Positions 11,576 to 34,384 of a DNA stretch of 58,994 bases are shown in pieces. Source of the DNA: a virus. Its lineage: Duplodnaviria > Caudoviricetes. Below the pieces are notes generated by a model. The model was not told the DNA's origin. It did not search any database and saw nothing but the letters and a program-made list of their open reading frames with translations. A program made the translations under genes and the position numbers. The DNA lies in the IMG/VR virus record IMGVR_UViG_3300033151_000226, positions 1 to 58,994 of that record. One strand, given 5' to 3'. Within the stretch, counting starts at the first letter, position 1, and each line of letters opens with the position of its first letter.

Positions 11576-14500
11576 TTACTTCCTACCAAACATCGGTGAG
11601 AAGTATTTGTAAGCCTTCGCGTCCTGGGCGTTCCGTCGCTCAATGATCTTATTGATCTTTTCGCGCTTCGCCTTCGGGTCCATCTTCGGATCTCTGTAGA
11701 TCCGGTCAATGGCCTTCCGCATCTTAGAGCGATCGCGGGCCCACTTGCCAATACGCTTGCGGGCTTTCAGCTGTTTGCGGTTATCTTCATCCATCAATCC
11801 CTCAATGCTCTCCCGATCGCCCTGCTTCTCATACGCCTTAACTGTGCCATACAGCTCGGTTACTTCCCGGTGGATCTCGTACATTTCAGTACCGTACCGG
11901 GTATTCCAGGCCGGGCCGGATCCACGATAGAAGCCGCCCAGGACTGGCAGCTGTCGCGCTGTCATTGCTGGTACTGGCGCCCGGCCCATGATCTCGCGTG
12001 TAATCACGTCGGCCGCCATGAGTGAGTAGCTTCCCAAGGTACCCATGTAACCACGTACCAAGAACTCGCCTTGTTTCGGTGATAGTCCCATGAGCTCAAG
12101 GAATGGGCCCATTGCTACCATCGTTTCGCTTGTCGAAGCGTTGTACCTGGACCGCTTCATCTTGTTGCGATCGGCCATACCTTCAATCGGCCGGCCAGTG
12201 AACATAGATTCATTTGCGAACACTTCCATGGCAGGCCGCATGATCTGAGGAATGGGGTTAGCCGCCATGGTATCCATAAGGGCATGGCCCATACGCTCGA
12301 ACAGTTTTTCGGGGGTGTCCTTGCCAATGGCGGCCCGGTACATTCTTTCCGGGATCGTGCCGTACAAGACACCCACTTCAAACGGTTTCGGGATCCGTGT
12401 ATGGAACTTAGTGCCCGGCATTAAGTGCCAGTACGCATCCTTATCCCATTCTTCCAGTGCTTCGTAATCCTCGTCACCGGAGTTAAGAGCTGCCAGTGCG
12501 GTACTGGCCAACGCGATCCACATGCCGCGCATGGCGATCTCTTTGGCAATCAGGCCCGGTACCGGCACCGCACCGCTGCGGCCGAGTTTGTATAAGCCTT
12601 GTAACCTGGCATTGAAGAACGGGAGCATATCGTTAAACATTTGGATCCACGCCCAGGATCCGTGCATAGAGAAGTCCATCAGATCCTTGGCTTCAAAGAT
12701 CGCTTGCCTACGTTCCTTGCCATTCTTGGTGGCAGCTTCGTAAACAGCTTCACGGTTAGCGTTCTCAACCGCGTCACCAACACGCCGCCAGCGATCCCAC
12801 ACGCCAGCTGTCAGATCAATGACGGTATCAAGGTGCTCTTGTATGTATTCATTGTCGTAACCCTTCAACCGGAGCGCGACACGGATGCTCTTGCGGGATG
12901 CGTCCGGGTCGGTGCCGTTGATGTAGCCGCCCTGGAAGGATCCACCGGCAAACATCATATCGAGCATACCGCCTTCTTCTTTGGCCGACTTATACAGGCC
13001 GTGCACACTGTCGACGATCGGTATGAAGTGATCCTCGTTGATAACCCAGGCGTGCAATGTATCTCGCGTGAAGTTTCGCGCCATGAAGCCGGGCTCTGAC
13101 GTAATCATGGTGGTGAGTAGCGTCTTGGCCGCACGCATTGGTAGGAACAGGCCGCGCAAAGATTCGATATTCACGTTGGTAAGCGACTTGAGCAACATCG
13201 GATCATTGACCCGGTAATACTCAGGCTTGCCGTCGCGCATGACCTTGACTACTTCCTTCCCGGCTGGTTCGGCCATGGCCCATAGTTTCGCTATTCCGTC
13301 GAATACTCCGAGCTGGCCCATCATATCGAGTATTTCTTCGGGGATCCCATCTTGCAGCATCATTTTCTTAATGCCGCCCCTGGGTATCAGTTTCGGATTG
13401 AACTTAATGCCTTCCTTGTCGAGAGCTCCGGTGCCGTCGAGTGCGTCAACTGTCTCCAGGACGGCCAGATTCTTCATAGACGCTTCAATCAGGTGATTGA
13501 AGTTCATAACGATGTTACCAAGTGGGTCAGATAGTGCGCTCTCGCCGCCGACAAGCCTGCGGATCCCGCTTGTCTGGTGTGATAGGCCCATTCCCTTGCC
13601 AAACTTGATCCCGCCACGCTGCCGGGCGTTATCTACGCGGTAAAAGGGTATCCAATCGGCTTTATCCCACACTGGCCGGGTTTCTTCGTCGATCAGGCCA
13701 GCACGTTCCGCGAGATCAAGGATCCTGCCTTTGAACTCGGCAAAGTCCTCGGCCACTTTTTCGTAGAGATCCTTACGCTGTACTGTCACGCCGTTGCGTT
13801 CCAGGGTGCCATTGGCCAGTTCAAGCCCGGCCGCGATATCGGTATCGTCGAAGTTGCGCTCTTTTTCTTCTTCCATCAAACGCTCGGCCCGGCGTGCGAT
13901 CATCCAGCCAAGGAAATCATCAAGCTCTTGTTTGACTGGCTCGAACACGTCCAGGAGCCCGCGGCTGCCCGGTACCTTGCTGATAACTCCACCACGCCAC
14001 TCAGGAGCGCCGTGTAGCAGGATCCCGCGCATTACACTCGCGGATCCCGTTGATAGCCTTGCTGCAATGTAACCATCCATTGCCGGGGTTTCTGTTTCGT
14101 CCAGGTAGTCCCGGTACGCACGCTTGATCCCGTAGAATTTATCGAACAGGCCGTGCTGTATCGCGTCTGAAAGGTTGCGCTTGGATTCGCGCCACTGGAT
14201 ATCCATGTAACCGCGGAAGGTATCAATCAAAGATCTGCGCTGGACCTTCATGCCAGCTTTCTTCATAAACTCTTTTTGTTCTTCGGTGTACTTGCGGTTG
14301 AAGGCCGGTTCCTGGCTGGCCAGCTTGTTGCGTAACGCAATCTGTCTGTGCAGTCTCTCTCTGGCCTTTTCGGACACGGCCCTTGCCGATTCCATTTCGG
14401 CTTCCAGTCGATCAACGGCCGGATCCTTGATGATCTCCTGCATCAGCTTGACCTGGCGTAATGGTTCGACGGTCGTTCCATTCTCCCAGTCGGCTTCCAA

Positions 14501-17500
14501 CTCTTTAACCCGCCTGCGTAGTTTCAGGTTCATTGAGATCTGTTCTTTCTTCGGGGCGGCCATAAACATCTTGGCAAACCGCAAACGCTCACCGATCTGC
14601 GCTACCTTATCCCCTGCTACCTTGAGATCGTAGTTCGCATCAAGCATTTGCTTTTCGAGATCACCGGATCTCCGTTTAGTAAACTCAGACTGGAACATTG
14701 GATCTTGCCCGGCCGGGGGCGTTTCGGCTTGGCTTTCTTCATACTGCCCAAGGATCTCTTGAACGTCCGATATCATGGTGCCCAGGTCCGTGAAGTATTT
14801 ACCGGATCCCATACCGCGGGCTTTAACCTTCTTCTGGAAGGATTTGAGGATATCAATGATTGCATCCAGGATCCGCTGGAATAGGTTGCGGTCTTTCTTC
14901 GCCAGCTCCCGGATAAAGACAGGATCCATGAAGGCGTCACCAACCACGTTGGCTACCATTTCCCGGAACATCTGAGTTTCGTCGTCGGCTTCTTGCCGGG
15001 CAGTGTCCTCGGTGTCCTCTCGCATCTTGTCGGAAAACTTTTTCAGGCCGCCGAGCTGCACATGACGCATGGCCACGTTGACGATCTGATCCCACAATTC
15101 CGGGTGAGTCTGTTCCAGGGTATGCGCTAACTCATGGCCAGTGACGCCCAGGAATGGATTTTGATTATCAATGTTGACGTAGATTGTCTTGGGATCACTG
15201 GGAAGGGCCACGCCGTTGAACGGGTAGTTTAGGTGTTCATCCCCGGTAGCCTTGAAGAATACGACTTTCTTACCGTAAACCCGCTGGACCGCTTTGACAG
15301 CTCCCGAAACTTCCGTCGGTGCCGCTACTTGCCGGTACGTTCCAGTCTTGACCTTCACGCCCAGGAAGCGGGCCATTGCCTGTTCGAGCTGCTTTGTAGC
15401 CGGGGTGATCCGGCCGAGCCCAACAACCAACCGCTTAACCTTGGCGCCGAAGCCGAGATCGAGCCCGTTCTTTGCGAACATCGGGAAGCTGGCCATAGCC
15501 GCGTCGTACATATCTTCGGTAATGGTGAGTGCGTGTTGCTTTGATGTGCCGCCGTGCAACATCTTGTCCATTGCGGCTTCGGCTTCATCCTTGGTATTAA
15601 ACCCGCCTTCGTAGGTGTAGCCCTCGCCGTCGGTAACGGCCCAGTTATTCATTCCCATCAGCTGCACCGTTACTTGGTGCGGATCCAAGGCTACGCCTTC
15701 GTCCTCCATGCGTTCGTCCAACTCGATCATATCGGTGGACATATCGCGCAAAAACCCTTCTTGAGCCGGGGTTATGCTTATGGATTCATTGGTTAGAATG
15801 TCGTCCGGGTGGCTAAAATGATCGCCCTGGTGATCGAGCATCTGGTTTTCATCCATCCAGTTTTCAAAGCGCGTTTCCAGATCCCCTCTCTCGCTGCGCC
15901 CTGGTTGTTTCGGGATCTCGATCTCACCTACCCGGCCGCCCCACTTCTTAACGAACTTGTTGGTTTCTTTGACAAGGATATTGTCGTAAAAGCCCTTCAT
16001 GCCCTCGCCGCCGACTTTCAGATCCAGGCCGGAGAACATATGGCCGTTGGTTCCGAGATCTATTTGCTCGGCCAACTCGTCTGTGACCTTGTTCACTCTG
16101 GTAAAACTCGCGCCAGCCTGCTCCATATCCGTAAGTTTTGATGATAGTTCTTTTTTCTTGGCCCGGCGTGCTGCTTCCGCTTCGAGTATCTTTTCAGCCA
16201 GTTCTTTGCCGACGTGATCTTCTAATGTTTCATCAGTCGGGTATATATTCTCAATACCGCCTTTCATCAGGCCGATCTCAAGCTCCCACTCGCGGTGCTT
16301 GTCGAGCCGCAACGCGCTACCTTCCGGTAGGTTCGACTGGACACGGCCCGGCCCGGAGCCCGGCTTGTACTTCGGTTTCGCGGTGATCCATTTGACGTGC
16401 TTGCTCAGATCGTAGCGTTCGGCCTGCTGCTGCCCGGTTGTCCAGGCAATCGTATCGTAGCCATTTTCAGCTGCATAACGGATCATCCGTTTCATGGCCA
16501 GCATATTCCAGCCTTTCTTGAATGGTGCGTCCGGTACGCCGCTGCGCTTGTTTATTGATCTGTAATATGTGTTTGCCAACTCTCTGGTGGAAAACGCTAC
16601 AGAAGGATCATGTACTGCACGCAATCGCCATTTTCCATTAGCTTCGTACACCATCCCGTCTGGTATTTCTTGTGATTTATACCCTTTCTTACGCCCGGCC
16701 TGGTGCCAGTCGCTCTGGATCTCCTCAATGAAAAGGATCGTTTCGCCGTTGGGCCCGGTGCGAGTATTGAAACGAATATGAACAATGATGTTCCTTTCGT
16801 CAAAGTGCTGTCCCTTGTAGGCGTCTTTCTCAACATCAACGGTCGTAGCTTCTGGTTTGGTAAGGTGCTTCTCGGCTTCTTCCCTTGTCGGGTAGCCTTG
16901 TTCGGACCATTCGCCATGTGCGGTTATCAGGAAATAATCAACTTCGCCGGTTTCATACCCACCACGAACAGGATCAAAGTCCCTGATCTTGTGCTCTCTC
17001 ACTTCCACGAAACCCTTTTGGGTTGTCCGGGTAACGGTTTCTTTCTGTACGGGGATCCGCAATATGAGCTCTTTGTATTTATCGCCGCCCGGTAGCTGCC
17101 AGTTTGCGTACTTCGTTGGAAAGCCGGTGTTTAGAATGTTCTCGTCGTTAAGTACCTGGGTGATAGCTTCTTCTTCGGTGGAATAGCTATCGGTAACGAT
17201 ATCCATTTCCTCGTCCTGGACATAAAACCCGTCCGGGCCTTCCACGACGCCAGCGCCAGTTGGCAGCATATCAATGGAAACAGTGTCAATCGTGTAGCTG
17301 ACCGCGCCCGCATTTTTGTAAGCCAACTTTGCGAACTCACGGTAAACGTGGTGCGGAAGGTTCTTGAAGATTACCTTGTCGCCTTCATGCCGGTAGTTGT
17401 AGTCCTCGTAACCTTCGGCACCCAAGTCTGTAAGATAGTTCTCTGCCGCGTCCGGGCCGTGTGGGGAGTGCTTGAAGTTGGCTTCGCCGGATACGGTAAG

Positions 17501-20500
17501 GAGACTTTCGCCCTTTTGGTCCTCGATCAACTCAAGCTGGTTTTCAGCTACAAAGTCCTGCAACTCTTTCCGGGTAGTGGATCCTTGCTCGTCGAGCCAT
17601 TCATCCAGGCCCATCCACTCGCGTTCCTCGGCTTTGAACTTGCCACCAGTCTGTACCATTTCGCCGGTTTTCTTACTGCGCTTCAATCCCTGCTGGCCGT
17701 TGAGCCACGTTTTATACAGTTCGGCCGTGCCTTTCTTCGGCATACCCTCGGCCTGGTTGACGGTTTCCACCAGTGCGGAGAAGAATGGATCCGTACCAGC
17801 TGGCACCTTCCTATGAAACTGGGGATCCTGCTCGGTATCAGCTGCCGGGGTCTTATCACTGTCGGCACTAAGCAGATTCATTACTACTTTGTACCGGGCC
17901 CGCGCCGTTTTCAGTTCCTCGGCCTGGGCGTATGGCTTCTTAATTGCTTCACGCTTAACGGCTAACGTTTCGGTATCTTCTTTCAGACTGTGCTTGGCAT
18001 AGGGGTTTTCTTCGTCATAGGAACTTACCCGGTTCTTAATTCTGGTAAGTGCGCCTTCGCCACTGAAACTATCAATGTGGGTGTATGATTTTACGTTCTC
18101 TACCGTCTTGCCTTCGATAGACATATACATCTCTAAGTTGCCCCACATGCTATGGGCCATGGACACATCAAAGCCGCGGTAGCTGAACAGCTTAACGGGC
18201 ATTGTGCCTGGATCTCGTTTCTTGTTGGCGACGTAACCCTTAACTACACTCTCGATCGCGGTAGCGGCCTTACCAACCTTCGTATAGTTGTTTGCGCCAA
18301 CCTGGAGAGAGAATTTATCTGGTAGTGGATTGGCTTCTCTTACAGCAACAAGCCTTTTCATACGATCTACTCTTTCTTCGTATCGGCCCTGTGGCCCGCC
18401 GTCTTTCTCAAGGCGCATGATTTCTTCTTCATCGTCAAATCGGCGTCTTGTGTGTGCGGTTTCACCCAAAGAGAGTTGATTGATCTTTTGGGATAACTCT
18501 ACTTGTTCCAGCATATAAGGATTGCCGGACGCTGCCGCTTTCATTTCTGCTGCGTTGGCTGCTTCCCCGCCGATATCTTCCATTACCCGGCCTGGGTTCT
18601 CTACGTACAGCTGCATGATGTACCGGGCTTTGGTTTCCTGTACTTGCCACATGCGAGAGTCATAGGTTGATTCTGTGGCGTATCGCTTGATCTCGATCTC
18701 GAACCCGTCTGGATCCTTGGCAAAGAAACTATTGCCGCGTCGAATGATCCGGCCTTCGCGCTGAGTTATATCAGCTGGCTTCCAAGGCGCGTCCAGGTGG
18801 TGAAGTGCGACAAGCCTTTCTTGCACGTTCATACCGGCGCCCATCTTGAAGGTGGACCCAAGCAGGATTCTGATTTTCCCGCTTCTTACTTGCTCAAATA
18901 GAAGTTGCTTACGAACGTCAGTGTTGTAATCGTGAATAAACGCGATTTCATTGTCCGGTATTCCCTGGACGGCTAACTTGGCCCGCATATCGTCATAGAC
19001 GGAAAACTGGGAAGTCAGTGCCGCAACGTCGTCTGGACTGTACCTGTCGAGCTTCTTCTGTGCTGGCTTGCTTATCGTCTGGTTCGGGCTATCTGCTTTA
19101 ACCAGTAGTTCACGATACTCCCGCTGCTCTTTCTTTTGGGTTCCCTTCGGGGTTGAGAGATCAATAAACACCAACTGGGTGCCCTTATCAGCGTTCCATT
19201 TGTCGTATGTCTTTTTGATGTTGCGAACAGCAACGTTCGTTTTACTGTCTGGATTGTCCGGTAACGATGGATCAATGAGTCGCATATCCAGCGCGGCCAA
19301 CCGTGCGTGGTATGTGATCGTAAGCATGTTGTCGTCGCCCTTGCCCGGCCTGGTGGGTAGGTTCTCGGCCCGGTGGACGATCTGTGCCATAAATTCGGCT
19401 TGCTCTGCGGATCTTTCAACAATTACGTTTTCAGGTTTGCCGCCCTTGATCTTCGGTATTGGCCAACGCTTGCCCGCTTCTGCGTGGGCCTTCATCAACT
19501 GTTCGTTGGTCATTTGGTCGGCAAAGGTTCGATAGATCCCTAACAACTCTGGCAGATTCTTGAACGATCTGAATCGTTCCTTCATCTTGTAGCCTTGCGC
19601 GGTTGAGTCGAGCTCTGCTTCCGATACGATATCGGCAAACAGGGCGGCCCAACCGTCGAACATATCCATGTTCCTTTCACGTAACAGGTTCGGGGCCACA
19701 TACCTGAACATGGTGTAGAGCTCGGCCACGGTATTACTTACCGGGGTGCCAGTTAAGAACGTAACCCCGCGCTGGCTACCGTTTATTTCCCTTGTGATCT
19801 CTGTCTTGAGATACAAGTCAGAAGCCTTTTGTGAGCCCTTGGTGTCGCCCAGGCCCGCAATGCGTGTGTGTTGGGTGGTGTAAAACAGGTTCTTGAACTC
19901 ATGCGCTTCGTCAACAACCAGATCATCAACGCCCAGTTCGCGCCAATCCATGAAGTCGTCAGTCTTAATCATGGACTGGTGGGCTTCTAACTTGGCCTGT
20001 AGTGATTCCTTCTTCTTTTGAAGCTCTTTGTATGACTTGTCGGACTTACCGGCCGCCACTTCTACCGCGGCTTGGCTTATTTCGAGATCCCGGATCTGCT
20101 TCGCGGTTTGCTTGGCCTTGTCCTCTGGTGACGTGTCTATCCGGCTAAAACTCGAATGAGCAACGATTACCGCGTCCCAGTCGCCCGTCGCTATCCTGGC
20201 AAAGAACTTCCGGCGATTGTCTTTCTGGAAGTCCTGTTTAGTCGCGGCCAGTACGTTCGCGTTCGGATAAAGGAAAGCAACATCTTCGGCCCACTGGGTT
20301 ACAAGGTGGTTCGGAACAACAATCATGGGCTTATTGACCAAGCCCATGCGTTTCTTTTCCATGATCGCGGCAATCGCTAAGAAGGTTTTGCCAGCTCCGA
20401 CAACATGATCTATCAGTCCGTACCCGTCTGATATCAGTCTCCAAGCACCATTCGCTTGGTGAGGATCCAGCGTGATCGAGTTGTTCATCCCAGGGAAGGT

Positions 20501-23500
20501 TAAAAAGGATCCATCAAATTTCTTTTTAGCCTGGGTGTTGAAGTTGTCGTTGTAATGCCGTACCAGCATTGACCGGCGTTCCGGTGTTTTCCACAACCAT
20601 TCCTGGAAGTGCTCTTGCAGTTCTTTCCGCTTTGCGTTTGCTTCCTGTGTGGCCACCGCGTCAACGGACGTAGATCCGTCGTCATTCTTGAATGTGACCT
20701 TTACTTCTTTGCCCCGTATGGCGTGGTCAATAATGCGCTGCAACGATACTGCCTGTGTAGCGTATTCACGCGCTGCAGGCTTCGCTTGGGCCCATGCCTT
20801 TTGTGAACCTTCCCACCTACCCAGGGCAGGAATGTAGGCATATGACGTATTCCATCCAGTGAGATCTTTAAGATACTCGTTCATAGTGTCCGGTGGGATC
20901 CATGGCGAGTGCATATCACTACTAATCTCGATCGCCGGGATATCCGCGGGCTGTACTTCGGCCAGTGCTTTGATGTTTTCCATCATGTTCGAGTCGGTTT
21001 CTGACTCTGCGCGGGCTTCGGCCAGCTTGCGCTTGACGTTTCCTGACAGGTATTCAGATCGGATTACATACCCGTCCTTCGGATCCCGGAACAGTTCGCC
21101 GCCCTCTAACAGTTCCTCGGCTACTTCTTCTTCCGTATTGCCGGTCAATTCAGCAATGCGTTCAAGATTGGCCCGGCCAGTCTCGTTAAGTGAAATCAGA
21201 AGGCCGTCACTGGCGCTGTCGGCGTGGTTCGGTGGTGTTTGGGGTATCGCTACTGCTTTCTTGAAGATATCCGCTTTCCCGGCCTTCGACGCGGCTACCT
21301 GTTGGCCGGTGTTCTTCGCTACCGTTGCGCTAACTGGTTTTGAGTAATCAGTTTCAAGTGCCAACAACCTGGGGAAGTCTGGATCGTCACGCAAAGCCAG
21401 CTTGTTCTGTTGGTCGTGGAAATATCCATGCGCTTTCTGAAATGCGTTGTAATGCTTGTTGAGTTGGGCACGCAAGAGTTTGAGCGCGGCCGGGGGTGAG
21501 TTTGGATTGATCTCGGCTTTGAGTAGGTTGTTAAGCGAATCACGCACGCGGATCCCGCTAATCATCCGGTCCCTGGCTTTCTTGTTCCGCAGGGTTGCTG
21601 GTTCGGATCTGAATGTCGTATTCCCGTCCGGGTCAACTACGTCGGGTAAACGCTGGTACACATTGCCCTTGCTTTCAAAGTAACCATGCACCTTGGCCGT
21701 TGTATCTACTTGCAGTTCAGCGTCGGGAATGGGTTTTTCGAGTCGCTTCCTGGCCTTCGTGTCTACCTTGTAGATCCTGACTGGCAGCATTTCGACTGCA
21801 CTCTTGATCTGGTTCGGAAGGGTTCTCTTTTCGTTCGGGGCCAGTGTGGGCTCGTCCTCACGATACATGGATCCAGAACGTTGCCACGTACCGAGCATCA
21901 TTTCGGGATATCTCGCAAAATACTCGTTTGTCACGATATCTTCGCCGCCCAGGGCGTCGGGGATCTCTGCAACGTTCGTCCAGTTCAGGCTTTTACTGGG
22001 TTCACCTGGGATGCGTTTCTGCAAAAAGATGATATCCGTAACCACTTCGGTTAAGGCATTTTCCTTGAAGGCCGTGTTTGGTAGGCGGATCGCGCCCAGG
22101 AAGTCTGCTTCGCTTTCAAGGTACTTCCGGGTTTTCGCTACCTTCTTGTCCATCAGGTGACGCGAGATAACCATTGCCACCAAGCCACCAGGCCGAACCT
22201 TCTTAATGGCTTTGCCAAAGAAGTAGTTATGAATTGACCAGCCGGAGATATCACGATTGGCCATATCTGTGATCGGGTAATTGCCGAATGGCGGGTTGCC
22301 GATAACCAGATCGAAGGTGTTGTCCTGGAAGGGGATCTCTTGGAAGCCCTTTTCCGCGTGGACCGTAGCTTGTGGGTACAGCTGTTGAGCGATCCGGCCG
22401 GTGATACTGTCGAGCTCTACACCTACCAGTCGGGACTTGGCCCGCATAGTTTCAGGCAATAGGCCAAAGAAGTTACCAGTGCCTACCGCTGGCTCAAGGA
22501 TCCGGCCGCCCCGGAAGCCAAGGCGCCTTATACCCGCGTAGATCCCTTCGATAACGTCAGTGCTTGTAAAGTGAGCATTGGTTGTAGATCGGCCGGCCGC
22601 TTCCAGTTCTGATTCAGTGAGCACGGCTTCAAGCTCTGGAACTTCTGATTCCCAACCTTTTGTAATGCCCTTGCTTGGGTGCCTGAACGCTTGCGGGATC
22701 CCGCCCCAACCAACATACCGGGCAAGGGTTCTCTGTTCTTCTGGCGTGGCCATTCGTTCGGTCTGCTCAAGATCCTTGAGAAGCTCGATAGCCTTGATAT
22801 TGTCTTTGTACTTGGTTTTTGCCCCACCGGATCCGAGCTCGTCGGATGGTGTTATGACATAGTTTGACCCGGCATTGGCTCCGGTCGTTCGATCTGTACT
22901 GTCCCCAGTTCGTCCAGGTACTCGTTCGTTTCCTGCTGGAGATCCTGTAGTTCCTGCATCAACTTCTGGCCTTCCGTCAGTGGTTCCTCGTCCTCGCTCT
23001 CCGGTGGCAGTATCAGGTAGTTGTTCCGTACTTCCATCCACGCTTCTTGGTGGCTGTACCCGCCCTCCATCAGCTCGTCGATCTCCCTCGCTGTCTGGTT
23101 CGCTGCGTCCTGTAGTGCCTGTTCCAGATCCTTCGACTTCTTGAGTTCCAGGTACATCGTCGGCCGGTGCTCCTTCCAGTGCGCCCTTGCCTTCGCTACC
23201 CAACCTCTCAGCTGTCTTTTCATTTTCCGTTTCCTCTGTATTAAGTATAGCACCTAAACCCTCTTTTATGTCCCCAAACAGCTCACCTTGGTCGGTGGTG
23301 GTTGGTTGTTCGGTTTGTGCTACTGCTTCGGCTCTGGCTTCGCCGCGGCTCTGGTATTCGGCTTCTCTGTGCAACGCACGCCACGCGGCCATTACCGCAC
23401 TGTCCTCAAGGATATCGTGCCTGTCCCACATCTCCTGGACGGTGCCTTGCTTGATCGCTACTTTGAGCTCTGCAAGTGGCACGCCGATATACCCGGCATA

Positions 23501-26500
23501 TTCTTTGAGTTGCTTCGGGGTCCAGCCATGGCCGATATCGTCTGCGCCCATTTGCTCGGTATCGTCAAACTCGGCCGTGCCCATCTTTTCTTCGGTAATC
23601 CGATCGCGTATTGCCGGTACTGCTTCGCCAATGCGTTTCGAGTTGGCCCGGAGCCGGTTTGCGTCACTGGTAATGACCGGGGCTTCGTTGCCCGGCCAGT
23701 ATTCTTCGATAACCTTTTTGAGATCCAAGAGCTTCTTACGATTGGCTGCGATACCAAGCAAGTGCACGGCCTTCGGTGTTGGGCCATGCCAGTTACGAAA
23801 CAGGTTTTCGATATCTTGCGGGCTCATGGCTTCGGCTTGACTGGGGAGCCCAAGCACGTAATTACCATCACCAAACAATGCGCCCAGGTGCTTAACCGCT
23901 TCAAAGAAGCCGCCGTCACCCTTCTGGACCGGCATTATCAGATTGGTTTTCTTGGCCAGTCGCATGAGTGCGCTCATGTGTTCTTTCTGGAGCTCGATCG
24001 TGCGGGCCTGCTTGCCAACAACATCGGGAGCAACGATCCATAGTGTTTCTTTGCTGCCTGTTCCAACCGATTCTACAATAGCTTCGTACCTGGCTAATAG
24101 TTCGTCAAAGGGTAGCTCTGCCAAAGCCGTTGCAGCGTCCTTCTCGGCCTTGGTAGTGGCCTTATCGTAAGCTGCCAAGGACTGTTTGAACGCGCTGTAT
24201 GCACCGGAATCAATAAATACCGGGTGTCCATCCTTCGCCATTTCAATAACCTGGCTGGTCGCGGATCCTTGCAACTCTGGAAGTGCCACGCCTACTGCCT
24301 TGCCTGCTTTCTGGTAGCCGCTAAGATCTCCGGGCCTGCTGGCGCCGGAACGGAACGAGTACACGCCCTGGACAAACTGCGAGTCGTTGAGGATCCGTTG
24401 GGTAGTTGATACGTCCGGCTCGGCCGGGGCGGGCACCTTGAACAGATCCGCAACATCAACGACGTTGAACAGGTATAGGCTCATGCCTTCGCGCTCTGCG
24501 ATCGTTACGTTGTTTAAGCTGATACCGGCCATTGTTACCCGGTTCATGTTGTCGCCGCGGATCCGCGCTTCTTCAACGGCCGCATCAATCAACCAACGAT
24601 CGAGTTTATTGCGATCGTTCTTGGCCTTCTGGCCAACGCCAAAGCCACTATCGTTCTCGGCATTGAATAACAGGCCACGCACGTCCGGGAAGGTGAGCGT
24701 CTGCCCGCTGCGGGTTGTTACGGTGTCGGCTGTTACCTTCGGCGTGAACTCGCCTGAAACGTTGTCACCCTCGCGCATGGTGCCGGTGTAGCCTTCGACG
24801 GGTTCTACGTCCCTGGCCGTACTGTTGGCCATGAAGAACGCATACGCAAAGCCTTCCGGGGTCTGCGATCGCCGGGCCTTATCTTCTTCCACGTCACCGC
24901 GGAGTTTGTGCATTAAGGATCCGAGCGTTGCTTCGACGTTCGCGGTCGGCAATGCGGGATTGAACTCGCCCCATAACTGGGTAGTCTTGGTGTACGGGTC
25001 GCCGTAATGGTGGGGCTGGAACACCAGCAATGGTTTTGGTAGGTTCGCTTCTGTCGCTATCCGGCCAATGGGGTTCTCAAGCACGTAAAACGTGGGATCT
25101 GTGAACTCGATAATGACTTTGGTTACATCAACCAGGGTTGTGGCGTACTCAAGCGGAGTGTCGAAGTAGTCAGTAGCCCATAGGCCGTACTTCTTCTCTA
25201 CCATTGCCGAGCTCTTGAGATCGTGTTGTGTTTTCCACCACCGGGCACCGGATACCGCAAACGACGTGCAAGGGCACGCGGCCAGTATGCCTACAACCTT
25301 TTTACCAGCTTCGTGGATATCTAAAATATCCCCTGTTGGCATGAACCGGACCAGATCATCACCGTCTTTGATATCGTAACGGATCACGTCATACCCGGCG
25401 TCTACATACGGTTGACTCCATGCACCAGTGGTATCAAATAGGCTGAGTATCACTTCTCTGCTGTGATCTTCTTCCCGGCCGATCCGCTTGGCTTCACGTT
25501 TCCAGGCTTCCAGCTGTGCTGCTGCCTGCTGGCTGGTAAGTAGCTGGTCGCCAATATGTTTCTTTGCAAAGTGCTTTTCTTCGTGTGCCGGGAATATAAC
25601 GTCCTTGGTCTTGTACCCTTCTGCCTGAGTCTGAGCCAGTTCCGGCGTGATCTTCTGATCCGCACGATCCCGCAAGGTGCCGTTATACATGATCTTGACG
25701 TAAAGGTTGCCGTTTTCGTCGGTAATCTTGGCCGTACCGAGATCCCTTGAGCCCGCACCAGTCTGTTGCCGAAAATCATTCCACTTGTCAATCGCGTCCT
25801 GGACTGATTTAACTTTGAACCTGTGTGGGTTGTCGCCTTCCTTGGGGCCACCCCACTCAACAAAGAATTGCGGGCGATACGCAATCGCGCTATCCGGCGC
25901 CGTGTCGAACGATTCCAGCTGTTCCTTGATGGTTCCCGCTTCCGTTTCTGCTTCTGGTACTGGTTCTGTTGCTGGTTCCGGTTCTGCTTCTGGTTTCGGC
26001 AATACAGATTCGGCCCATTCCTCTAACCTGGAGTCGCCCCAATTCTCGGCCCGGTCGCGCCATTGAAGGTGCCCGGTTACTTCCCGGCCGTCTGCTGATC
26101 GAACTACAGTCTTGTTGGCACCACCGCGGGTATCCTTGAGCTGCATCTTGATTGCCGTACCGTTTGGTAGCTTGATAGTCCTCGTTACGTTCGATTCTTC
26201 CCACAGTGCTTCGTCGGATTGTCTCGCTTTCTTCCAACGCTTCTCGCCTTTAAGGTGGCCTTCGAGTAGTTCAACTTCCTCGAACATGCCGCCATGCTGT
26301 TCCTCGATCTTGCCGGTGAACTCTGCCAGATCTCCCTTGAAGTAGGTTTCTTCCCGCGTGGCCGCCTGCTTGAGCTCTTTCTGTTTGCCCTGGTTGAGTT
26401 TCTTACGAACCGCAAGCCAATACTCCGTCCAAGTCGGGGATCTGCCGAGATCCTTTTCAAGCCTGTTCCAAAGTTGCGTAGCCCGGCTTTCCTGCATACT

Positions 26501-29500
26501 GGTGAAGTTGGCCGTACTGATCGACGCCATTTTCTTTGGAATAGCCCGGTCCATGGCTCCCGCTTCTTCTTTACTCCAAGCCTTTAAGAAACTATCCGGG
26601 ATCGGTGAGTCGTTCGGTTGCCCAAGGAACTCGGCCATAGACGATCGGTACTCGCTTGTTATGCCGTCCTCTTTTGGTGGGGCCGGTGGCATTTTCGCGC
26701 CTTCAAACAGATTGAAGTCGAAATTGCCAAACGGTTTGCTTTGGTTGCCATTTTCTAACCACTCTTTCAGGGCGGGTAGCGTGGTCATTGTGTGACCGGC
26801 GTATACCTGGGTGTCCTCAAAGCCTTCGCTGTAGTTGCGGAAGTAGGTTTCTTTTTCTTTGAATTGCTCGGCACCAATAATTATCTTGTGCTCGTCAAAC
26901 CTGCCAGTCTCGATATCTCGCTGGTCAACGATTGCAACACGCGGCCTGTCACTTGCCGCTTCCGGGCCCAGGAACACATCTACATGATCGCCGTCGTTGC
27001 CTTCGGTGCGTTTGATGTATCCGTAGTGGTCGACCATCGTTACTTGCCAGTCTTTGCCCTCGCGAGTGCTGCCGGACGGGTTCTCGATAGTGATATCAAA
27101 ACCGTGAAGGTTTACGTGGCCCTTCTTATAATTTCCTGCGTCCTTCTGGCCTTCGGTGGGTTCGGGTAGGTCATTGGTAGGCGACGTTGCCGCTTCGTGG
27201 GCCGCTTCGTTTAGATTTTCTTCGCCGTCACCAATTACGGGCGGGGATTTCTCCCCGCCTTCATTGACGAGATCTACTTCGGCTTGTTGCTGATCCCGTG
27301 TACGTGGTTGCTCCCTTCCTTCGCGCACTTGCCGCCGCTGTTCTTGCCCTGGTTCGCGTCCTGGACCCGGTGGTCGTTGTTCACCTTCCGGGATGGGGTC
27401 TTGCCGCCCTTCCTCTTGATCGGGTAGCCCGCTGTATTGTTGTCCATCATCTGTATCCTCTTGTGTTGCCACATCTTCAAGGGTTGTAGCGGAGCCCTGT
27501 TCTGTTGCCGGATCCCCGGTAAGATTTACCGTCTTACCTTCTTCGAGATCTTGGCCTTGTTTCTCTCTGGCACGCTGTTCAATAACGCGCCGCGCTTCTT
27601 TCGCAAGCTCCTCATGCGGGGAACGTTTCAGTTGTTCGAGTACGTGATCCGGGGCGATATCCATGGTATCGAGCAATTCATCATGGAGCCACTTGCGGGC
27701 ATTGACGCCGCGCTCTTTCAGGATATCCCAGGCTACTTGCCGGGCATTGTCGGATCTGGTTGGATCTGCCCACTCGTCGATAAGCTGCCGATCTTCCTGC
27801 TTCTCCAGGGAAGGCCGGATCTTCTTCATTCGTTTAGCGTCTGTCTCGCCGGTTATGCCACTTTCATTCGGTGAGAAGTTCTTAACATCACGATCGCGGA
27901 ACGTGTCTGCGATCATACCTGGCACTGACGCCGGGCCACCCATCATCATACCAACGCCAAAGGCCCAACCGATCCGGCCAAAGCCTTCACCAAACGTGGG
28001 GGCGTTCATTGTTTCGTCAATGTCGCCGCCAATGTGGGCCAGTTCTGTAACGGCTTCTGAACCACCTTCGGCCAAGGTGTTGATACCCAGTCCCTTCAAT
28101 CCCTTGATACCAATGGCCGCACGCTGGAACACGCCAAAGATGCGCTCTGGCACCACTTCGGCCAATGTCCTGAATACCATTTCTCTGGTTGCTTGTACGG
28201 GATCCTTACCGTCGTCGATCCGGGCCTTTACGTACTCGCCTGGTGCAACCATGGCGGCCATAACTGCTTCACCGGCCCATGGCAGCTTCGATACCGCACT
28301 GGCAAACATACCACTGGCCAGATATGGCAGGGAGTCCATTGCATCGGATCCCATTCGTAGAATGATATTCTCAGGACGTGAGAATCCCGCATGACGCATG
28401 TTGGTTGTTGCGGCTTCGTACAGATCCTTTGCAACCTGTTCGAGTGCCGGGTTCATGTTGTCCGGGTGATCGGCCGCCATTTGTGTGACGCCAGCTGCCC
28501 ACTCTTTGCCCATACCGGCATACTGCTGTACCCGGCCAAAGATCCAGTCCTTACCGTTTTTGAAGTCGGCCAATACTTCTTTTTGGAAGGCTTCTTCGTT
28601 CTCAACGCCGCGCTTACGCATTTCGAGCTTGCCCAGGTAGTCGGCCCACTGTTCATCTGAGAACATTGCCAGCATAGGATTACCGGCCATTTGCGGGGTT
28701 ATGTACTTGGTGAGATCGTTGAGCTGCGTTACGCGGGTTGCATACCGGGTAAATTCTTCGTCAGAGATCCGGCCAAGGTCCGGGTGTGAATAAATGGTAT
28801 CAGGGGCGAGTCCACGATCGACAAGAGCTTTCAATCCCTTGTGTCGCTTCTCCATGAGAGCGAAGGTTTCTGGTGTTTGTGTGACAGTGCCCTGGAACGG
28901 ACGGTCTACGCTGTAATCGTTCGGGCCGTCCAGTGCCGGGTTATCAGCACCATGGCGACGGGCGAAACGACTACGCGCCTGCGTGTCTGGTGTTGATGGG
29001 TTGATGGTAGTTTCTTGGCTGGCCGGCCACTTGATGCGATCGCCGTTATCGTCGAACTGTTCAATGCTTCCGGGCTCGTTGTCACCTTCCAGGAAGGCGT
29101 CGATTGCGGCTTCCTCGTTGTCGTATCCTGCGGTATTGACCATGTAACGCTGGCCATTATGGTCAAACGGGATGGTATCGCGCATTTCCACCCCTCGCGG
29201 GGCTGCGGTTGGCTGTTCTCGTTGGGCCGGTGCCTGCGGTGTGTTCAGATCGTAACTGTTGGCAATACCGGCGATATCCGGTTGTTCTAACTCTACGTGT
29301 TCTTCTTCTGCGGCCCTTACTGCTTCATCGGCCGTTGAATACGGATTTACCTTGCCAGCTTGTATATCAGATAGCGCGGCTTCAATCGCTTCATCGTCTG
29401 ATCCATAATCAATGCCGGTGTCTCTATCGAACCCAGGAACGTTGTACCACTTCCCATCTGGCCCTTGGGCCGTTTTGCTGAGTACCGTCGTGGTGGATCC

Positions 29501-31938: not shown

Positions 31939-31949
31939 GATTTCATCTC

Positions 31950-33758: not shown

Positions 33759-34384
33759 TACATGACTGCCTTCGGTTCGTATGCTGGCCGCAAGTGTGGC
33801 GGCATGTAGGCTTCTGTTACCAGCTGGCCAAACATTTCCTTCGCTTCTTCGCAACCTTCGTCAGTTGCGAACCGGCCAAAGCCCTTTATCCGGCCGTCCT
33901 CTACCAAGATCTCGCGCAACATTTCAAGACGCTGGACCGGGAAAGGCGCCGGGATCTCCAAGTATTGCCACAAGGCCCGCAACGTATCGTGCTGGAATAG
34001 ATGTTTGTATTGGATCACCGGGACGTTTGGTACGTTCTTTACCAACCAGTGCAGGCCCGCCCACACAGCTGGCATTGATTCGTCACTACAGGATATGGTT
34101 TTAAGCGATTTGCGTACATCGTCTGCCGGTCGCAGTACCACAAAAAACCTATATCCAAGCGGCCGGAGTTGTGCCGCCAGTGTTGGCGCTATCACTCCTG
34201 CGGCTGTATCAATGCTGCCCTTAACCGGCGTATCCAGACTGTCTATTGAACTGATAAACCCATTGATACTGTCACAACCATACAGGGCTTCATGCCTGCA
34301 AAATGACGATTCCCCATGACAAAGGAAGTTTGATAACCAAGCAGTTCCGCTACGTGGAGTCGCAAAACCGAGAAACTTCATCAC
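33758..34384 (-). CDS. Sulfotransferase-fold P-loop protein
   Basis: 'PRSGTAWLSNFL', 'C.HE', 'VVLR...DV..SL', 'IQY..L'. Confidence 0.7.
   Translation of the reverse strand: MMKFLGFATPRSGTAWLSNFLCHGESSFCRHEALYGCDSINGFISSIDSLDTPVKGSIDTAAGVIAPTLAAQLRPLGYRFFVVLRPADDVRKSLKTISCSDESMPAVWAGLHWLVKNVPNVPVIQYKHLFQHDTLRALWQYLEIPAPFPVQRLEMLREILVEDGRIKGFGRFATDEGCEEAKEMFGQLVTEAYMPPHLRPAYEPKAVM

What the first reader, a model, noticed from the sequence alone, without database searches (positions are those of the whole stretch)
11576..29878. A 6100-aa ejected polyprotein that appears to carry three DNA-modifying enzymes in tandem
Seen, in N-to-C order: InPase-like domain (~27210-26725), C5-cytosine MTase motifs (~25455-24825), TGT/DpdA-like domain (~24365-23640), N6-adenine MTase plus SNF2 helicase (~22865-17870), an 'EEIQSDWHQ' domain (~16730), an HExxH peptidase (~15130) and an LPD38-like end. 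Known: P1 DarB (MTase + SNF2) is packaged, injected and protects DNA from restriction in cis, and polyvalent proteins accrete such domains. Inference: this protein could modify A, C and G of the incoming genome before transcription starts. I do not know of a described DarB with both a C5-MTase and a TGT-fold domain.
Basis: partly seen in the sequence, partly recalled or inferred. Interest (0 to 1): 0.9.

Follow-up and report, generated by a model that had tools for sequence, protein, structure and literature searches.

The report
Giant phage protein with DNA-modifying modules
One 6,100-residue gene fills a third of a small phage genome and strings together an adenine methylase with a motor, a minimal cytosine-methylase-like module and an uncatalogued relative of the enzymes that swap guanine for 7-deazaguanine; it is an elaborate version of a known kind of virion-carried anti-restriction protein.

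Summary
The ORF is real: 11576-29878 (-), 6100 aa, 31% of a complete 58,994-bp phage genome with terminal repeats. It lies last in the virion gene module.

- **Well supported:** InPase, N6-adenine MTase with NPPF, SNF2 and LPD38 (Pfam).
- **C5 module:** the C5-cytosine-MTase reading is supported by fold. Every listed PDB match to rank 24 is a C5 DNA MTase. Pro-Cys and E-N-P are invariant. The protein's only two cysteines sit in that motif.
- **TGT/DpdA module:** only partly supported. It is a clean TIM barrel. Pfam TGT/DpdA models, PADLOC and Foldseek do not recognise it. A family profile does hit the DpdA genes of phages 9g, CAjan and Rosebush, and HHalign gives 95.8% (controls ≤0.4%).
- **No preQ0 genes:** this genome has none. 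QueC passes its cut-off in 1 of 79 viral records carrying the barrel. The substrate is therefore open.
- **Virion delivery:** inferred. A homologue (phage JC1 gp69) was found in virions by mass spectrometry.
- **Not unique:** the same domain order recurs in metagenomic giants.

Earlier notes of this scan found the DpdA-like module on other DNA. Verdict: a new variant of a known kind.

The parts
11576..29878 (-). Giant ORF, 6100 aa, 31% of the complete genome; polyvalent DarB-type protein
   Evidence: Precomputed Pfam set: SNF2, Eco57I, LPD38, InPase, PF28553/4/5.
26756..27151 (-). InPase domain (aa 910-1041)
   Evidence: Pfam PF18823, E 1.6e-39, covers profile positions 2-134 of 135.
24812..25477 (-). 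Minimal C5-cytosine-MTase-like module (aa 1468-1689). Catalytic Pro-Cys at aa 1536-1537 (nt 25268-25273); E-N-P at aa 1601-1603.
   Evidence: phrog_757 E 8.9e-39. 1216 stand-alone relatives; 14 of the 120 listed carry PF00145. Invariant motifs. AF2 pLDDT 92.7. Foldseek: all listed PDB matches to rank 24 are C5 DNA MTases. The only two Cys of the protein are here.
23624..24373 (-). Uncatalogued, cysteine-free (beta/alpha)8 barrel related to phage DpdA (aa ~1836-2085). Candidate active-site residues: D1890, Y1894, D1952, Q1985, H2039, D2072.
   Evidence: AF2 pLDDT 89, eight strands. 714 cluster representatives at E<=1e-3. Family profile hits only the DpdA genes in 3 of 5 phage genomes. HHalign 95.8%, E 7e-9; controls <=0.4%. 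Residue positions.
22013..22570 (-). N6-adenine DNA MTase (aa 2437-2622), NPPF at aa 2528
   Evidence: Pfam Eco57I E 7.9e-8 and N6_Mtase E 8.3e-5. phrog_10089 'DarB-like antirestriction'. Motif.
18734..20419 (-). SNF2 ATPase (aa 3154-3330, DEAH at 3323) and Helicase_C (aa 3645-3715)
   Evidence: Pfam SNF2-rel_dom E 1e-9, ResIII, Helicase_C. 42-45% identity over ~97% to 'DarB-like antirestriction' genes of cultured podophages.
18413..23095 (-). Block homologous to the virion-detected JC1 gp69 (DarB-like)
   Evidence: tblastn 33.6% identity over 1611 columns, E 0. Virion MS in PMC9144972 Table 6.
15929..16831 (-). 'EEIQSDWHQ' module (aa ~4350-4650); function unknown; very common in giant polyvalent proteins
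   Evidence: 1248 proteins of 3355-10675 aa match aa 4300-5250 at E<=1e-3. Coverage peaks at aa 4350-4500 and 4600-4650. No Pfam or NCBIfam family.
14729..15301 (-). HExxH module (aa 4860-5050, HELAH at 4915); possible zincin-type processing peptidase
   Evidence: Motif. Shared by 32 of 119 giants. No Pfam hit at E<=5. Atlas lead to LPD23 on 18-20% of members only.
11939..12475 (-). LPD38 domain (aa 5802-5980)
   Evidence: Pfam PF18857, E 4.6e-44. Listed as phage-only in PMC5512222 section 33.
29885..36435 (-). Upstream virion-internal/ejection genes, probably co-transcribed with the giant gene (6-nt gap): ORF 29885-31051, 'DNA ejection protein' 31051-31938, ORF 31950-33854, 'internal virion protein' 34381-36435
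   Evidence: PHROG hits. 34477-35637 matches JC1 gp61, a virion protein. The first three ORFs have 0 Cys in 1317 aa.

Best explanation
This is a phage-type polyvalent protein of the DarB kind. It is a single giant late-gene product that is most likely packed into the capsid with the internal/ejection proteins and leaves it with the DNA.

It carries a string of enzymes that act on the phage's own DNA to blunt restriction:
1. An N6-adenine methylase coupled to an SNF2 translocase (the DarB dyad). This would track along DNA and methylate adenines.
2. A minimal C5-cytosine-methylase-like module with an intact catalytic Cys and Glu but almost no target-recognition domain. It is therefore probably of low sequence specificity, or is guided by the rest of the protein.
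3. A cysteine-free TIM barrel related to phage DpdA that keeps the aspartates used for glycosidic-bond exchange. I take it to perform base exchange or related N-glycosidic chemistry on DNA guanines. If so, it must use a base made by the host (preQ0 or preQ1), because the phage encodes no synthesis pathway.

InPase, the EEIQSDWHQ module, an HExxH module (possible self-processing) and LPD38 are accessory modules typical of such proteins.

Shown: the ORF, the domain identities, the folds, the motif conservation, the synteny, and homology to a virion-detected protein.

Inferred: packaging and ejection of this particular protein, all enzymatic activities, the barrel's substrate, and the timing of action.
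For: **ORF and genome**
- ORF and complete genome with terminal repeats.

**Domains and the DarB block**
- Pfam InPase, N6-MTase, SNF2 and LPD38.
- phrog_10089 'DarB-like antirestriction' up to E 6e-143.
- The DarB block is 42-45% identical over ~97% to giant genes of cultured ~60-kb podophages.

**Virion context**
- The gene is last in the structural module, after ejection and internal virion protein homologues.
- JC1 gp69 is homologous. It was detected in CsCl-purified virions with 51 unique peptides (PMC9144972, Table 6).

**C5 module**
- AF2 pLDDT 92.7.
- All listed Foldseek PDB matches to rank 24 are C5 DNA MTases.
- P-C, E-N-P and R-S-x-T-P-x-G-F are invariant in 36 sequences.
- Cysteine is 2 of 6100 residues, against 49 of 7681 in 19 other ORFs, and both lie in A-C-P-C-T.

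**Barrel**
- Eight-stranded barrel.
- The family profile finds only the DpdA genes in 3 of 5 deazaguanine phage genomes.
- HHalign 95.8%, E 7e-9 over 135 columns. It pairs D1890 and D1952 with DpdA aspartates. Shuffled, reversed and unrelated controls give <=0.4%.
- The DpdA paper names three aspartates as invariant, plus an aromatic residue at +4 (PMC10164549, section 30).

**Precedent for host-supplied base**
- 9g DpdA alone put dPreQ0 into plasmids in E. coli, and 'singleton DpdA' phages exist (PMC6884629, sections 7, 9, 10).
Against: **Barrel not recognised by standard tools**
- No match to Pfam TGT or DpdA: window piece at E<=5, 0 of 35 family members at E<=0.1, genome-wide at E<=1 and E<=10.
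- No match to PADLOC Dpd models.
- No PDB sequence or profile match.
- Foldseek gives 0 PDB matches at E<=0.001 and no TGT or DpdA in the listed rows, which run to rank 50; only generic TIM barrels appear.

**Other weaknesses for the barrel**
- The third aspartate (D2072) aligns with DpdA's only in a low-confidence tail.
- The profile found nothing in phages Dp-1 and 7-11.
- QueC, QueD and FolE are absent from this complete genome.
- QueC passes its cut-off in 1 of 79 barrel-bearing viral records.
- Bacterial DpdA needs the DpdB ATPase (PMC10164549).

**C5 module**
- It does not reach Pfam PF00145 itself.
- TM-scores to solved C5 MTases are only ~0.4.
- Its motif I is atypical.

**Virion delivery**
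- No virion proteomics or DNA chemistry exists for this phage.
- JC1 gp69 and phage 8P's giant protein lack the barrel. Virion presence is therefore shown only for the DarB core of a relative.
Confidence: 0.7

Rival explanations
1. The barrel is a diverged DpdA relative that no longer exchanges guanine in DNA. It may act on another substrate: a nucleotide or nucleoside, a host signalling nucleotide, or tRNA. Or it may do another kind of glycosidic chemistry. On this view the protein modifies only A and C.
For: - No preQ0 genes here.
- QueC passes its cut-off in only 1 of 79 barrel-bearing viral records.
- 25 of 150 barrel-bearing representatives also carry InPase, which PMC5512222 section 23 links to nucleotide-like substrates.
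- One of 35 stand-alone members is fused to a nucleoside 2-deoxyribosyltransferase.
- Not recognised by the TGT/DpdA Pfam models or by Foldseek.
- Hutinet et al. note that singleton DpdAs may have diverged in function (PMC6884629, section 9).
Against: - The aspartates and the +4 aromatic residue that TGT/DpdA use are conserved.
- In this protein the module sits between two DNA methylases.
- In one locus a stand-alone copy lies next to an SNF2-type helicase.
- 9g DpdA works with host preQ0 alone.
Confidence: 0.35
2. The enzymes act mainly late in the producing cell, on progeny DNA before packaging, as ordinary phage methylases and DpdAs do. Virion carriage of the protein would then be secondary or structural. 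Protection would be inherited with the DNA rather than applied after injection.
For: - The gene is a late, structural-module gene. The protein is therefore present when progeny DNA accumulates.
- Canonical phage DpdAs lie among replication and preQ0 genes and modify DNA in the cell.
- Base exchange that depends on a scarce host base seems slow for the short window after injection (inference).
Against: - P1 DarB, the archetype, is described as prepackaged and acting on infection (PMC5512222 section 14; PMC6630229 section 3.11).
- JC1 gp69 is abundant in virions.
- Near-total cysteine avoidance is shared with the three ORFs directly upstream, one of them the ejection-protein homologue. This suggests a protein built to leave the capsid (inference).
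Confidence: 0.3
3. The extra modules are decayed passengers without activity, and the giant protein serves only as an internal or ejection scaffold plus a DarB core.
For: - The C5 module lacks a normal target-recognition domain and has an atypical motif I.
- The barrel lacks the Zn subdomain I recall for TGT.
- Close relatives manage without either module.
Against: - Catalytic residues are invariant across 36 and 35 diverse sequences.
- The only two cysteines retained in 6100 residues are in the catalytic motif.
- Both modules also exist as widespread stand-alone genes.
Confidence: 0.05
4. The 6100-aa ORF is a chimeric metagenome assembly.
For: No single public contig spans the whole gene.
Against: - Run X1 covers 30 of 30 bins with identical contigs. 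One of them (22504-24637) spans the barrel and continues toward the N6-MTase.
- No joints were reported. X1 may be the source sample.
- Runs from two other studies hold identical fragments.
- GC is even at 0.51-0.55.
- The same domain order is seen in P0250 and P0176.
Confidence: 0.02

Closest known systems
P1 DarB and the giant DarB-like proteins of Bcep22-, PBC5- and PEp14-like podophages (e.g. JC1 gp69, 4515 aa; Atu_ph08 gp21, 4877 aa; Parlo, 3764 aa)
   Same: - N6-adenine MTase followed by an SNF2 ATPase.
- 33.6% identity over 1611 columns to JC1 gp69, and 42-45% to the VvAW1/PEp14/SopranoGao group.
- Last gene of the virion module, and a fifth to a third of the genome.
- JC1 gp69 found in virions.
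   Different: - JC1 gp69 has neither the C5-like module nor the barrel at E<=1.
- The papers I read describe helicase, methylase, transglycosylase or peptidase domains only (PMC6630229 section 3.11; PMC9144972).
- No DarA homologue was looked for here.
Phage-type polyvalent proteins (Iyer, Burroughs, Anand, de Souza, Aravind 2017, PMC5512222)
   Same: - Many enzymatic domains in one polypeptide, in a virion gene context.
- InPase, LPD38, the MTase-helicase dyad and a possible HExxH processing module.
   Different: - The paper's main text has no occurrence of 'TGT', 'TIM barrel' or 'queuine'. 'Cytosine' occurs only in a reference title.
- Only adenine methylases are described in the passages shown.
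- Its supplementary files could not be seen.
Phage DpdA (9g gp03, CAjan gp35, Rosebush gp2) and bacterial DpdA (S. Montevideo, PDB 7UI4)
   Same: - TIM barrel.
- F-x-D-S-G-A-F-S, x-x-D-x-x-G-D and H-x-x-G motifs align at HHalign 95.8%.
- Candidate equivalents of Asp95, Phe99, Asp130 and Asp256 are present.
   Different: - Not matched by Pfam TGT or DpdA models, nor by Foldseek.
- No cysteine, hence no Cys-based Zn site.
- Embedded in a giant virion protein.
- Not accompanied by FolE, QueD, QueE or QueC.
- No DpdB.
Small stand-alone phage 'Dcm-like' DNA methyltransferases (phrog_757); by fold, DNMT3A/B and M.HhaI
   Same: - Fold.
- Pro-Cys motif IV and an ENV-like motif VI.
- 14 of the 120 listed relatives carry PF00145.
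   Different: - Only ~30 residues lie between the T-K-x-T-x-L-W-G block and the R-S-x-T-P-x-G-F block, where larger enzymes carry a target-recognition domain. That placement is my reading.
- TM only ~0.4.
- Here it is fused inside a polyvalent protein.
- No activity data were found.
Pseudomonas phage 8P gene 8P_023 ('structural protein', 5145 aa, MT152150.1)
   Same: - C5-like module (E 8.8e-90) plus N6-MTase-SNF2 (~40% identity) in one giant gene at the end of the structural module.
   Different: - No barrel at E<=1.
- No paper on this phage was found in the library.

Membership tests
Phage-type polyvalent protein (Iyer et al. 2017) | Several unrelated enzymatic or binding domains in one polypeptide | tested here: met
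   At least seven modules.
Phage-type polyvalent protein (Iyer et al. 2017) | Encoded among virion/packaging (late) genes | tested here: met
   Terminase, portal, capsid, internal virion and ejection protein homologues lie directly upstream.
Phage-type polyvalent protein (Iyer et al. 2017) | Marker domains found only in the phage type (InPase, LPD38) | tested here: met
   Pfam E 1.6e-39 and 4.6e-44. Paper section 33.
Phage-type polyvalent protein (Iyer et al. 2017) | Delivered into the host with the DNA | not testable with these tools
   Only by analogy: homologue JC1 gp69 is in virions.
DarB-like MTase-helicase dyad | EcoKI/TaqI-like N6-adenine MTase with NPP(Y/F) | tested here: met
   NPPF at aa 2528. 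Pfam Eco57I and N6_Mtase.
DarB-like MTase-helicase dyad | SF2/SNF2 ATPase fused C-terminal to the MTase | tested here: met
   SNF2-rel_dom, ResIII and Helicase_C at aa 3154-3715. DEAH at aa 3323.
DarB-like MTase-helicase dyad | LPD36 domain N-terminal to the MTase | tested here: inconclusive
   No Pfam hit for aa 2100-2450 at E<=5. That stretch does match phrog_10089 'DarB-like antirestriction', E 2.2e-40.
DarB-like MTase-helicase dyad | Protects incoming DNA from type I restriction in cis | not testable with these tools
   Needs phage genetics.
C5-cytosine DNA methyltransferase | Fold closest to solved C5 DNA MTases | tested here: met
   All listed Foldseek PDB matches to rank 24 are C5 DNA MTases, E 3e-6 to 2e-3, but TM is only ~0.4.
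C5-cytosine DNA methyltransferase | Motif IV Pro-Cys nucleophile and motif VI Glu (ENV) | tested here: met
   P77-C78 and E142-N143-P144 are invariant in 36 sequences. Window aa 1536-1537 and 1601-1603. The motif names are recalled.
C5-cytosine DNA methyltransferase | Motif I F-x-G-x-G SAM loop | tested here: inconclusive
   The family has L-F-D-x-x-G-x-W, with one conserved Gly. From memory this resembles the DNMT3 form.
C5-cytosine DNA methyltransferase | Target-recognition domain between motifs VIII and IX | tested here: not met
   Only ~30 residues lie between the conserved blocks. Stand-alone relatives are as short as 178-190 aa.
C5-cytosine DNA methyltransferase | Match to Pfam PF00145 | tested here: not met
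   No hit for the window's segment at E<=5. 14 of the 120 listed relatives carry it.
TGT/DpdA superfamily | (beta/alpha)8 barrel | tested here: met
   AF2 model with eight strands alternating with helices, pLDDT 89.
TGT/DpdA superfamily | Significant profile similarity to accepted members | tested here: met
   HHalign against three phage DpdAs: 95.8%, E 7e-9. Controls <=0.4%. The only genome-wide hits were in DpdA genes, in 3 of 5 phages. Against a single E. coli Tgt only 5.6%, but true DpdAs score 1.0% in the same test.
TGT/DpdA superfamily | Three invariant active-site aspartates and an aromatic gate at +4 (PMC10164549, section 30) | tested here: inconclusive
   D1890 (+Y1894) and D1952 are invariant and confidently aligned. 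D2072 is conserved in >=90% of members but aligns only in a low-confidence tail.
TGT/DpdA superfamily | Match to Pfam PF01702 (TGT) or PF23859 (DpdA), or to PADLOC DpdA | tested here: not met
   PF23859 also misses all five phage records that I chose from memory as 7-deazaguanine phages; DpdA genes were confirmed in three of them.
TGT/DpdA superfamily | Solved TGT/DpdA structures among the best fold matches | tested here: not met
   None in the listed rows, which run to rank 50. No PDB match at E<=0.001.
TGT/DpdA superfamily | Cys-based Zn-binding subdomain (recalled for TGT) | tested here: not met
   The segment has no cysteine; the protein's only two are in the C5 module.
TGT/DpdA superfamily | Genomic association with 7-deazaguanine synthesis genes | tested here: not met
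   QueC, PTPS (QueD) and FolE absent at E<=1. QueC over its cut-off in 1 of 79 related viral records. 'Singleton DpdA' phages are a known exception.
TGT/DpdA superfamily | Base-exchange activity on DNA or tRNA | not testable with these tools
   Needs biochemistry.

The most novel reading that the evidence does not exclude
The barrel is a new, Zn-free branch of DNA guanine transglycosylases that travels inside the virion. Riding on the SNF2 motor in place of DpdB, it would replace guanines in the phage genome with a 7-deazaguanine scavenged from the host's queuosine pathway. The neighbouring modules would methylate C and A. A single injected protein would then mark three of the four bases without any phage-encoded precursor pathway. 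The family has 714 cluster representatives at 50% identity, many of them inside giant proteins. This would make it a widespread, overlooked anti-restriction device.
Probability: 0.2. Interest if true: 0.85.

Novelty: new variant of a known kind. Interest (0 to 1): 0.6.

Why it matters
Giant DarB-like virion proteins are known, but they have been described as adenine methylase plus helicase. This case shows the scaffold also recruits a minimal C5-methylase-like module. It further recruits a large family of DpdA-related barrels that has no Pfam family and no informative name.

If the barrel exchanges bases, 7-deazaguanine-type DNA modification would be far more common in phages than counts of preQ0 gene clusters suggest. 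It could also be delivered as protein cargo.

The near-absence of cysteine, with the only two residues kept at the catalytic motif, gives a simple sequence signature for ejected enzymatic cargo that could be tested more widely.

Tried and rejected
**Searches that found nothing useful**
- NCBIfam on ten pieces: nothing meaningful.
- PDB sequence searches with both segments and with profile A2: nothing.
- Profile A1 gave only E~0.1 hits to three cytosine MTases, among coiled-coil noise.
- PADLOC on the barrel family: no Dpd model.

**Leads that stayed leads**
- Atlas hints of DpdA on 17% of one cluster, a 'T4 beta protein' cluster, and LPD23 on 18-20%.

**Guilt by association for stand-alone barrels**
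- No neighbour family recurs in more than 3 of 25 loci.
- 8 of 10 immediate neighbours have no PHROG match. One is a small terminase subunit and one an SNF2-type helicase.

**Uninformative test**
- HHalign of the barrel profile against a single E. coli Tgt gave 5.6%. True DpdAs give 1.0% in the same test, so it has no power.

**Literature**
- Nothing found on phage 8P.
- 'PLxRFG' and 'DarB + mass spectrometry + virion + giant' gave nothing relevant.
- The BASEL paper has no data on the small C5 enzymes.
- Gill et al. 2011 (PMC3187461) is not held. Its Bcep22 proteomics is known to me only through PMC9144972.
The domain tables of Iyer et al. 2017 and the Supplementary Figure S2 of PMC6630229 might list further domains.

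**Other**
- No membrane-like segments in the giant protein.
- Runs X2-X4 cover only 20, 17 and 4 of 30 bins. Their gaps say nothing.

Full report
**What is there.** The window is a complete virus genome of 58,994 bp with direct terminal repeats. On the minus strand, one ATG-to-stop frame runs from 29878 to 11576 and encodes 6100 residues. That is 18,303 nt, or 31% of the genome. GC content is even across it at 0.51-0.55. Contigs of public run X1 cover all 30 bins of the gene with identical sequence. One 2134-nt contig (22504-24637) spans the whole barrel and continues toward the N6-methylase. Runs from two other studies hold identical fragments, and no joints were reported. X1 may be the sample the genome was assembled from, and no single contig spans the gene. 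Even so, nothing points to a chimera.

**Context.** The genes upstream on the same strand are:
- tail fibre homologues (53493-55711);
- small and large terminase subunits (52930-53496 and 51443-52930);
- portal (49407-51440);
- major head protein (46571-47491);
- structural proteins (38888-40206);
- an 'internal virion protein' (34381-36435);
- a 'DNA ejection protein' (31051-31938).

The giant gene starts 6 nt after the preceding ORF. Three JC1 virion proteins (gp51, gp53, gp61) have homologues in this module.

**Domains confirmed by curated models.** Pfam finds InPase (aa 910-1041, E 1.6e-39), Eco57I/N6_Mtase (aa 2437-2622), SNF2, ResIII and Helicase_C (aa 3154-3715), and LPD38 (aa 5802-5980, E 4.6e-44). 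NPPF is at aa 2528 and DEAH at aa 3323. PHROG family 10089, 'DarB-like antirestriction', matches three pieces with E down to 6e-143. The methylase-SNF2 block is 42-45% identical over about 97% of its length to giant genes of cultured ~58-62-kb phages (VvAW1, PEp14, Pavtok, SopranoGao, LASTA, Itty13, POI1126, Atu_ph08, PBC5). RefSeq labels these genes 'DarB-like antirestriction'.

**The C5-like module (aa 1468-1689).**
- Pfam and NCBIfam are silent. phrog_757 'DNA methyltransferase' matches at E 8.9e-39.
- 1216 proteins of 132-422 aa match at E <= 0.001. Of the 120 listed, 14 carry PF00145 and one is named a DNA cytosine methyltransferase.
- In an alignment of 36 sequences, P-C, E-N-P and R-S-x-T-P-x-G-F are invariant.
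- The AlphaFold model is confident, with mean pLDDT 92.7.
- Every listed Foldseek match in the PDB down to rank 24 is a C5-cytosine DNA methyltransferase (DNMT3A/B, M.HhaI, DNMT1, DIM2, MET1), with E from 3e-6 to 2e-3.
- TM-scores are only about 0.4. I attribute that to the missing target-recognition domain. Only about 30 residues separate the conserved blocks that flank it in larger enzymes, and stand-alone relatives are as short as 178-190 aa.
- A profile search of PDB sequences gave only E~0.1 to three cytosine methylases.
- The 6100-residue protein contains two cysteines, both in A-C-P-C-T of this module. Nineteen other ORFs of the genome have 49 cysteines in 7681 residues. At that rate about 39 would be expected here (my arithmetic). 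The retained catalytic cysteine argues that this module is active.

**The barrel (aa ~1836-2085): evidence against a TGT/DpdA assignment.**
- No Pfam family matches the window's piece at E <= 5.
- None of 35 family members matches TGT or DpdA at E <= 0.1.
- No PADLOC Dpd model matches.
- PF23859 (DpdA) and PF01702 (TGT) find nothing anywhere in the genome.
- There is no PDB sequence or profile match.
- The confident eight-stranded barrel model (pLDDT 89) has no PDB fold match at E <= 0.001. Its best matches are generic TIM barrels (aldolases, OMP decarboxylase, UVDE, RuBisCO), with no TGT or DpdA in the listed rows, which run to rank 50.
- Among viral predicted structures, the only strong match is the same module in another polyvalent protein (E 4e-15, TM 0.71). 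The rest are uncharacterised.

**The barrel: evidence for a DpdA relationship.**
- A profile of the family (A2, 35 sequences) was searched in six frames over five whole phage genomes that I chose from memory as 7-deazaguanine phages. It gave exactly one hit in each of three of them, at E 2e-5 to 4e-3.
- All three hits lie inside the genes annotated 'queuine tRNA-ribosyltransferase', next to FolE, QueD or QueC, in phages 9g, CAjan and Rosebush. Dp-1 and 7-11 gave nothing.
- HHalign of A2 against those three DpdAs gives 95.8% probability, E 7e-9, over 135 columns. It pairs F-I-D-S-G-A-Y-S with F-L-D-S-G-A-F-S, A-P-D-V-V-G with L-D-G-I-G-D, and H-L-L-G with H-G-F-G.
- Eight column-shuffled copies, a reversed copy and two unrelated profile pairs give at most 0.4%.
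- The DpdA structure paper states that Asp95 (acid/base), Asp130 (base recognition) and Asp256 (nucleophile) are invariant in TGT and DpdA, and that Phe99 gates the pocket (PMC10164549, passages of section 30).
- The family has an invariant D with F/Y at +4 (window D1890, Y1894), an invariant D1952, and D2072 in at least 90% of members.
- D2072 lines up with DpdA's S-C-D-S-S only in a low-confidence tail of a forced alignment.
- Against a single E. coli Tgt the profile matches only the D-S-G motif (5.6%). Genuine DpdAs reach 1.0% in the same test, so that test is uninformative.

I conclude that the barrel is a diverged, uncatalogued relative of phage DpdA. Its fold-level and model-level membership in TGT/DpdA is not shown.

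**What the barrel might use.** The complete genome has no QueC, QueD (PTPS) or FolE at E <= 1. Among 79 viral records that encode the barrel, QueC passes its Pfam cut-off in one, and in 1 of the 38 records that are at least 90% complete. The family is therefore not tied to a phage-made base. There is precedent for host supply. Expression of 9g dpdA alone in E. coli put dPreQ0 into plasmid DNA. 'Singleton DpdA' phages exist whose hosts mostly make queuosine. The authors also note that such DpdAs may have diverged in function (PMC6884629, passages of sections 7, 9, 10). Bacterial DpdA needs the DpdB ATPase. Whether the SNF2 motor could play that part here is speculation.

**Distribution.**
- The barrel has 714 representatives (clusters at 50% identity) at E <= 0.001. 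They occur both stand-alone and inside giants.
- Of the best 150, 13 also carry the C5-like module, 25 an InPase and 9 the window-type N6-methylase region. P0250 (5599 aa) and P0176 (7099 aa) show InPase, C5, barrel, N6-MTase and SNF2 in the same order.
- In 80 viral loci the barrel lies in ORFs of at least 1500 aa in 46, of 500-1500 aa in 14 and of under 500 aa in 20. Nine have the C5-like module in the same ORF. Loci are cut at 10 kb on each side, so these are lower bounds.
- In a set of 119 giants chosen independently, because they share aa 4300-5250, the C5-like module occurs in 4, the barrel in 0 and the N6 region in 13. None combines two of them. The combination is uncommon but not unique.
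- Sixty-five of 66 stand-alone relatives have no precomputed Pfam family, and no source gives an informative name.
- Cultured Pseudomonas phage 8P has a 5145-aa 'structural protein' with the C5-like module (E 8.8e-90) and the DarB block, but no barrel.

**Other modules.**
- The EEIQSDWHQ motif is at aa 4385. The surrounding region matches 1248 proteins of 3355-10675 aa, with conservation peaking at aa 4350-4500 and 4600-4650. It has no named family.
- HELAH is at aa 4915. That module is shared by 32 of the 119 giants, has no Pfam match, and has only an atlas lead to LPD23.
- Iyer et al. describe zincin-like HExxH domains as the commonest polyvalent-protein domain, with a probable self-processing role (PMC5512222, section 8). 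I did not test whether this module belongs to them.

**Virion delivery.** This is inferred. In the Bcep22-like podovirus JC1, the 4515-aa DarB-like gp69 was detected in CsCl-purified virions with 51 unique peptides, the second-highest score after the capsid protein. It is also the last gene of the morphogenesis module (PMC9144972, sections 3.3, 3.5, 3.8 and Table 6). The window's protein aligns with gp69 at 33.6% identity over 1611 columns. Published notes also mention giant DarB homologues in Atu_ph08 (4877 aa; PMC6630229, section 3.11) and Parlo (3764 aa; abstract in the listing). Cysteine avoidance extends to the three genes directly upstream, which have 0 in 1317 residues. That would fit proteins that must pass out of the capsid, but this is my inference. 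No hydrophobic membrane-like segment was found.

**Comparison with what is known, and novelty.**
- The protein is a member of the phage-type polyvalent proteins and carries the DarB dyad.
- In the main text of Iyer et al. 2017 I found no 'TGT', 'TIM barrel' or 'queuine', and 'cytosine' only in a reference. The methylases described in the passages shown are adenine methylases. Its supplements could not be seen.
- Full-text searches for DpdA with 'polyvalent' and DpdA with 'DarB' returned nothing relevant.
- Earlier notes of this scan (e1-5351023, e1-3282989) reported a DpdA-like module in giant phage proteins on other DNA, and e1-6199596 a cysteine-free giant. My tests agree with them but are not independent discoveries.

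I rate this a new variant of a known kind. The scaffold and two of the three chemistries are familiar. The barrel family, and its pairing with C5 and N6 methylases in a virion protein, appear undescribed in print.

**Verdict.** Confidence is 0.7 for the overall reading, and about 0.2-0.3 that the barrel really replaces guanine in DNA. Interest is 0.6.

Noticed in passing
window 11576-33854 (-): Cysteine is almost absent from the giant protein (2 of 6100). It is wholly absent from the three ORFs directly upstream, including the ejection-protein homologue (0 of 1317). Nineteen other ORFs have 0.64%. This may be a signature of proteins that leave the capsid.
   Followed up: partly
protein P0167 (stand-alone barrel relative, 411 aa): Its C-terminal half matches nucleoside 2-deoxyribosyltransferase families (PF05014 E 2.5e-8, PF15891 E 3.4e-9). 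This is a fusion of the barrel with another base-exchange enzyme.
   Followed up: no
L085:9968-13849: In a complete 153-kb phage genome, a stand-alone barrel gene lies directly upstream of a 903-aa SNF2-type helicase. That helicase matches the same PHROGs as the window's SNF2 block.
   Followed up: no
phage records NC_024146, NC_028776, NC_004684, NC_015274, NC_015938: Pfam PF23859 'DpdA' finds nothing at E<=1 in any of five phage genomes that I chose from memory as 7-deazaguanine phages; DpdA genes were confirmed in three of them. It seems to model only the bacterial DpdA.
   Followed up: no
L089 (Pseudomonas phage 8P) 359-571 and 36348-36899; L090 (JC1) 5468-5662: Both cultured relatives carry a CsrA-like regulator gene inside the structural module. 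Phage 8P also has an 'N-(deoxy)ribosyltransferase-like protein' and a separate adenine methyltransferase.
   Followed up: no
window 12964-12968: Two contigs of run X2 show one base left out at 12964 and a G put in behind 12968. This is a compensated shift of one codon's neighbourhood within the giant gene, and probably a strain variant.
   Followed up: no
window 53493-55711 (-): Two tail-fibre homologues lie upstream of the small terminase subunit, ahead of the packaging genes rather than after the head genes.
   Followed up: no
window aa 1432 of the giant protein (about nt 25583-25585): A second HE..H match lies just before the C5-like module. It is probably a chance motif.
   Followed up: no
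window 4514-6326 (-): An Erf-like single-strand annealing protein (5433-6326) and a phrog_1376 protein lie in the early region. No DNA polymerase was looked for.
   Followed up: no
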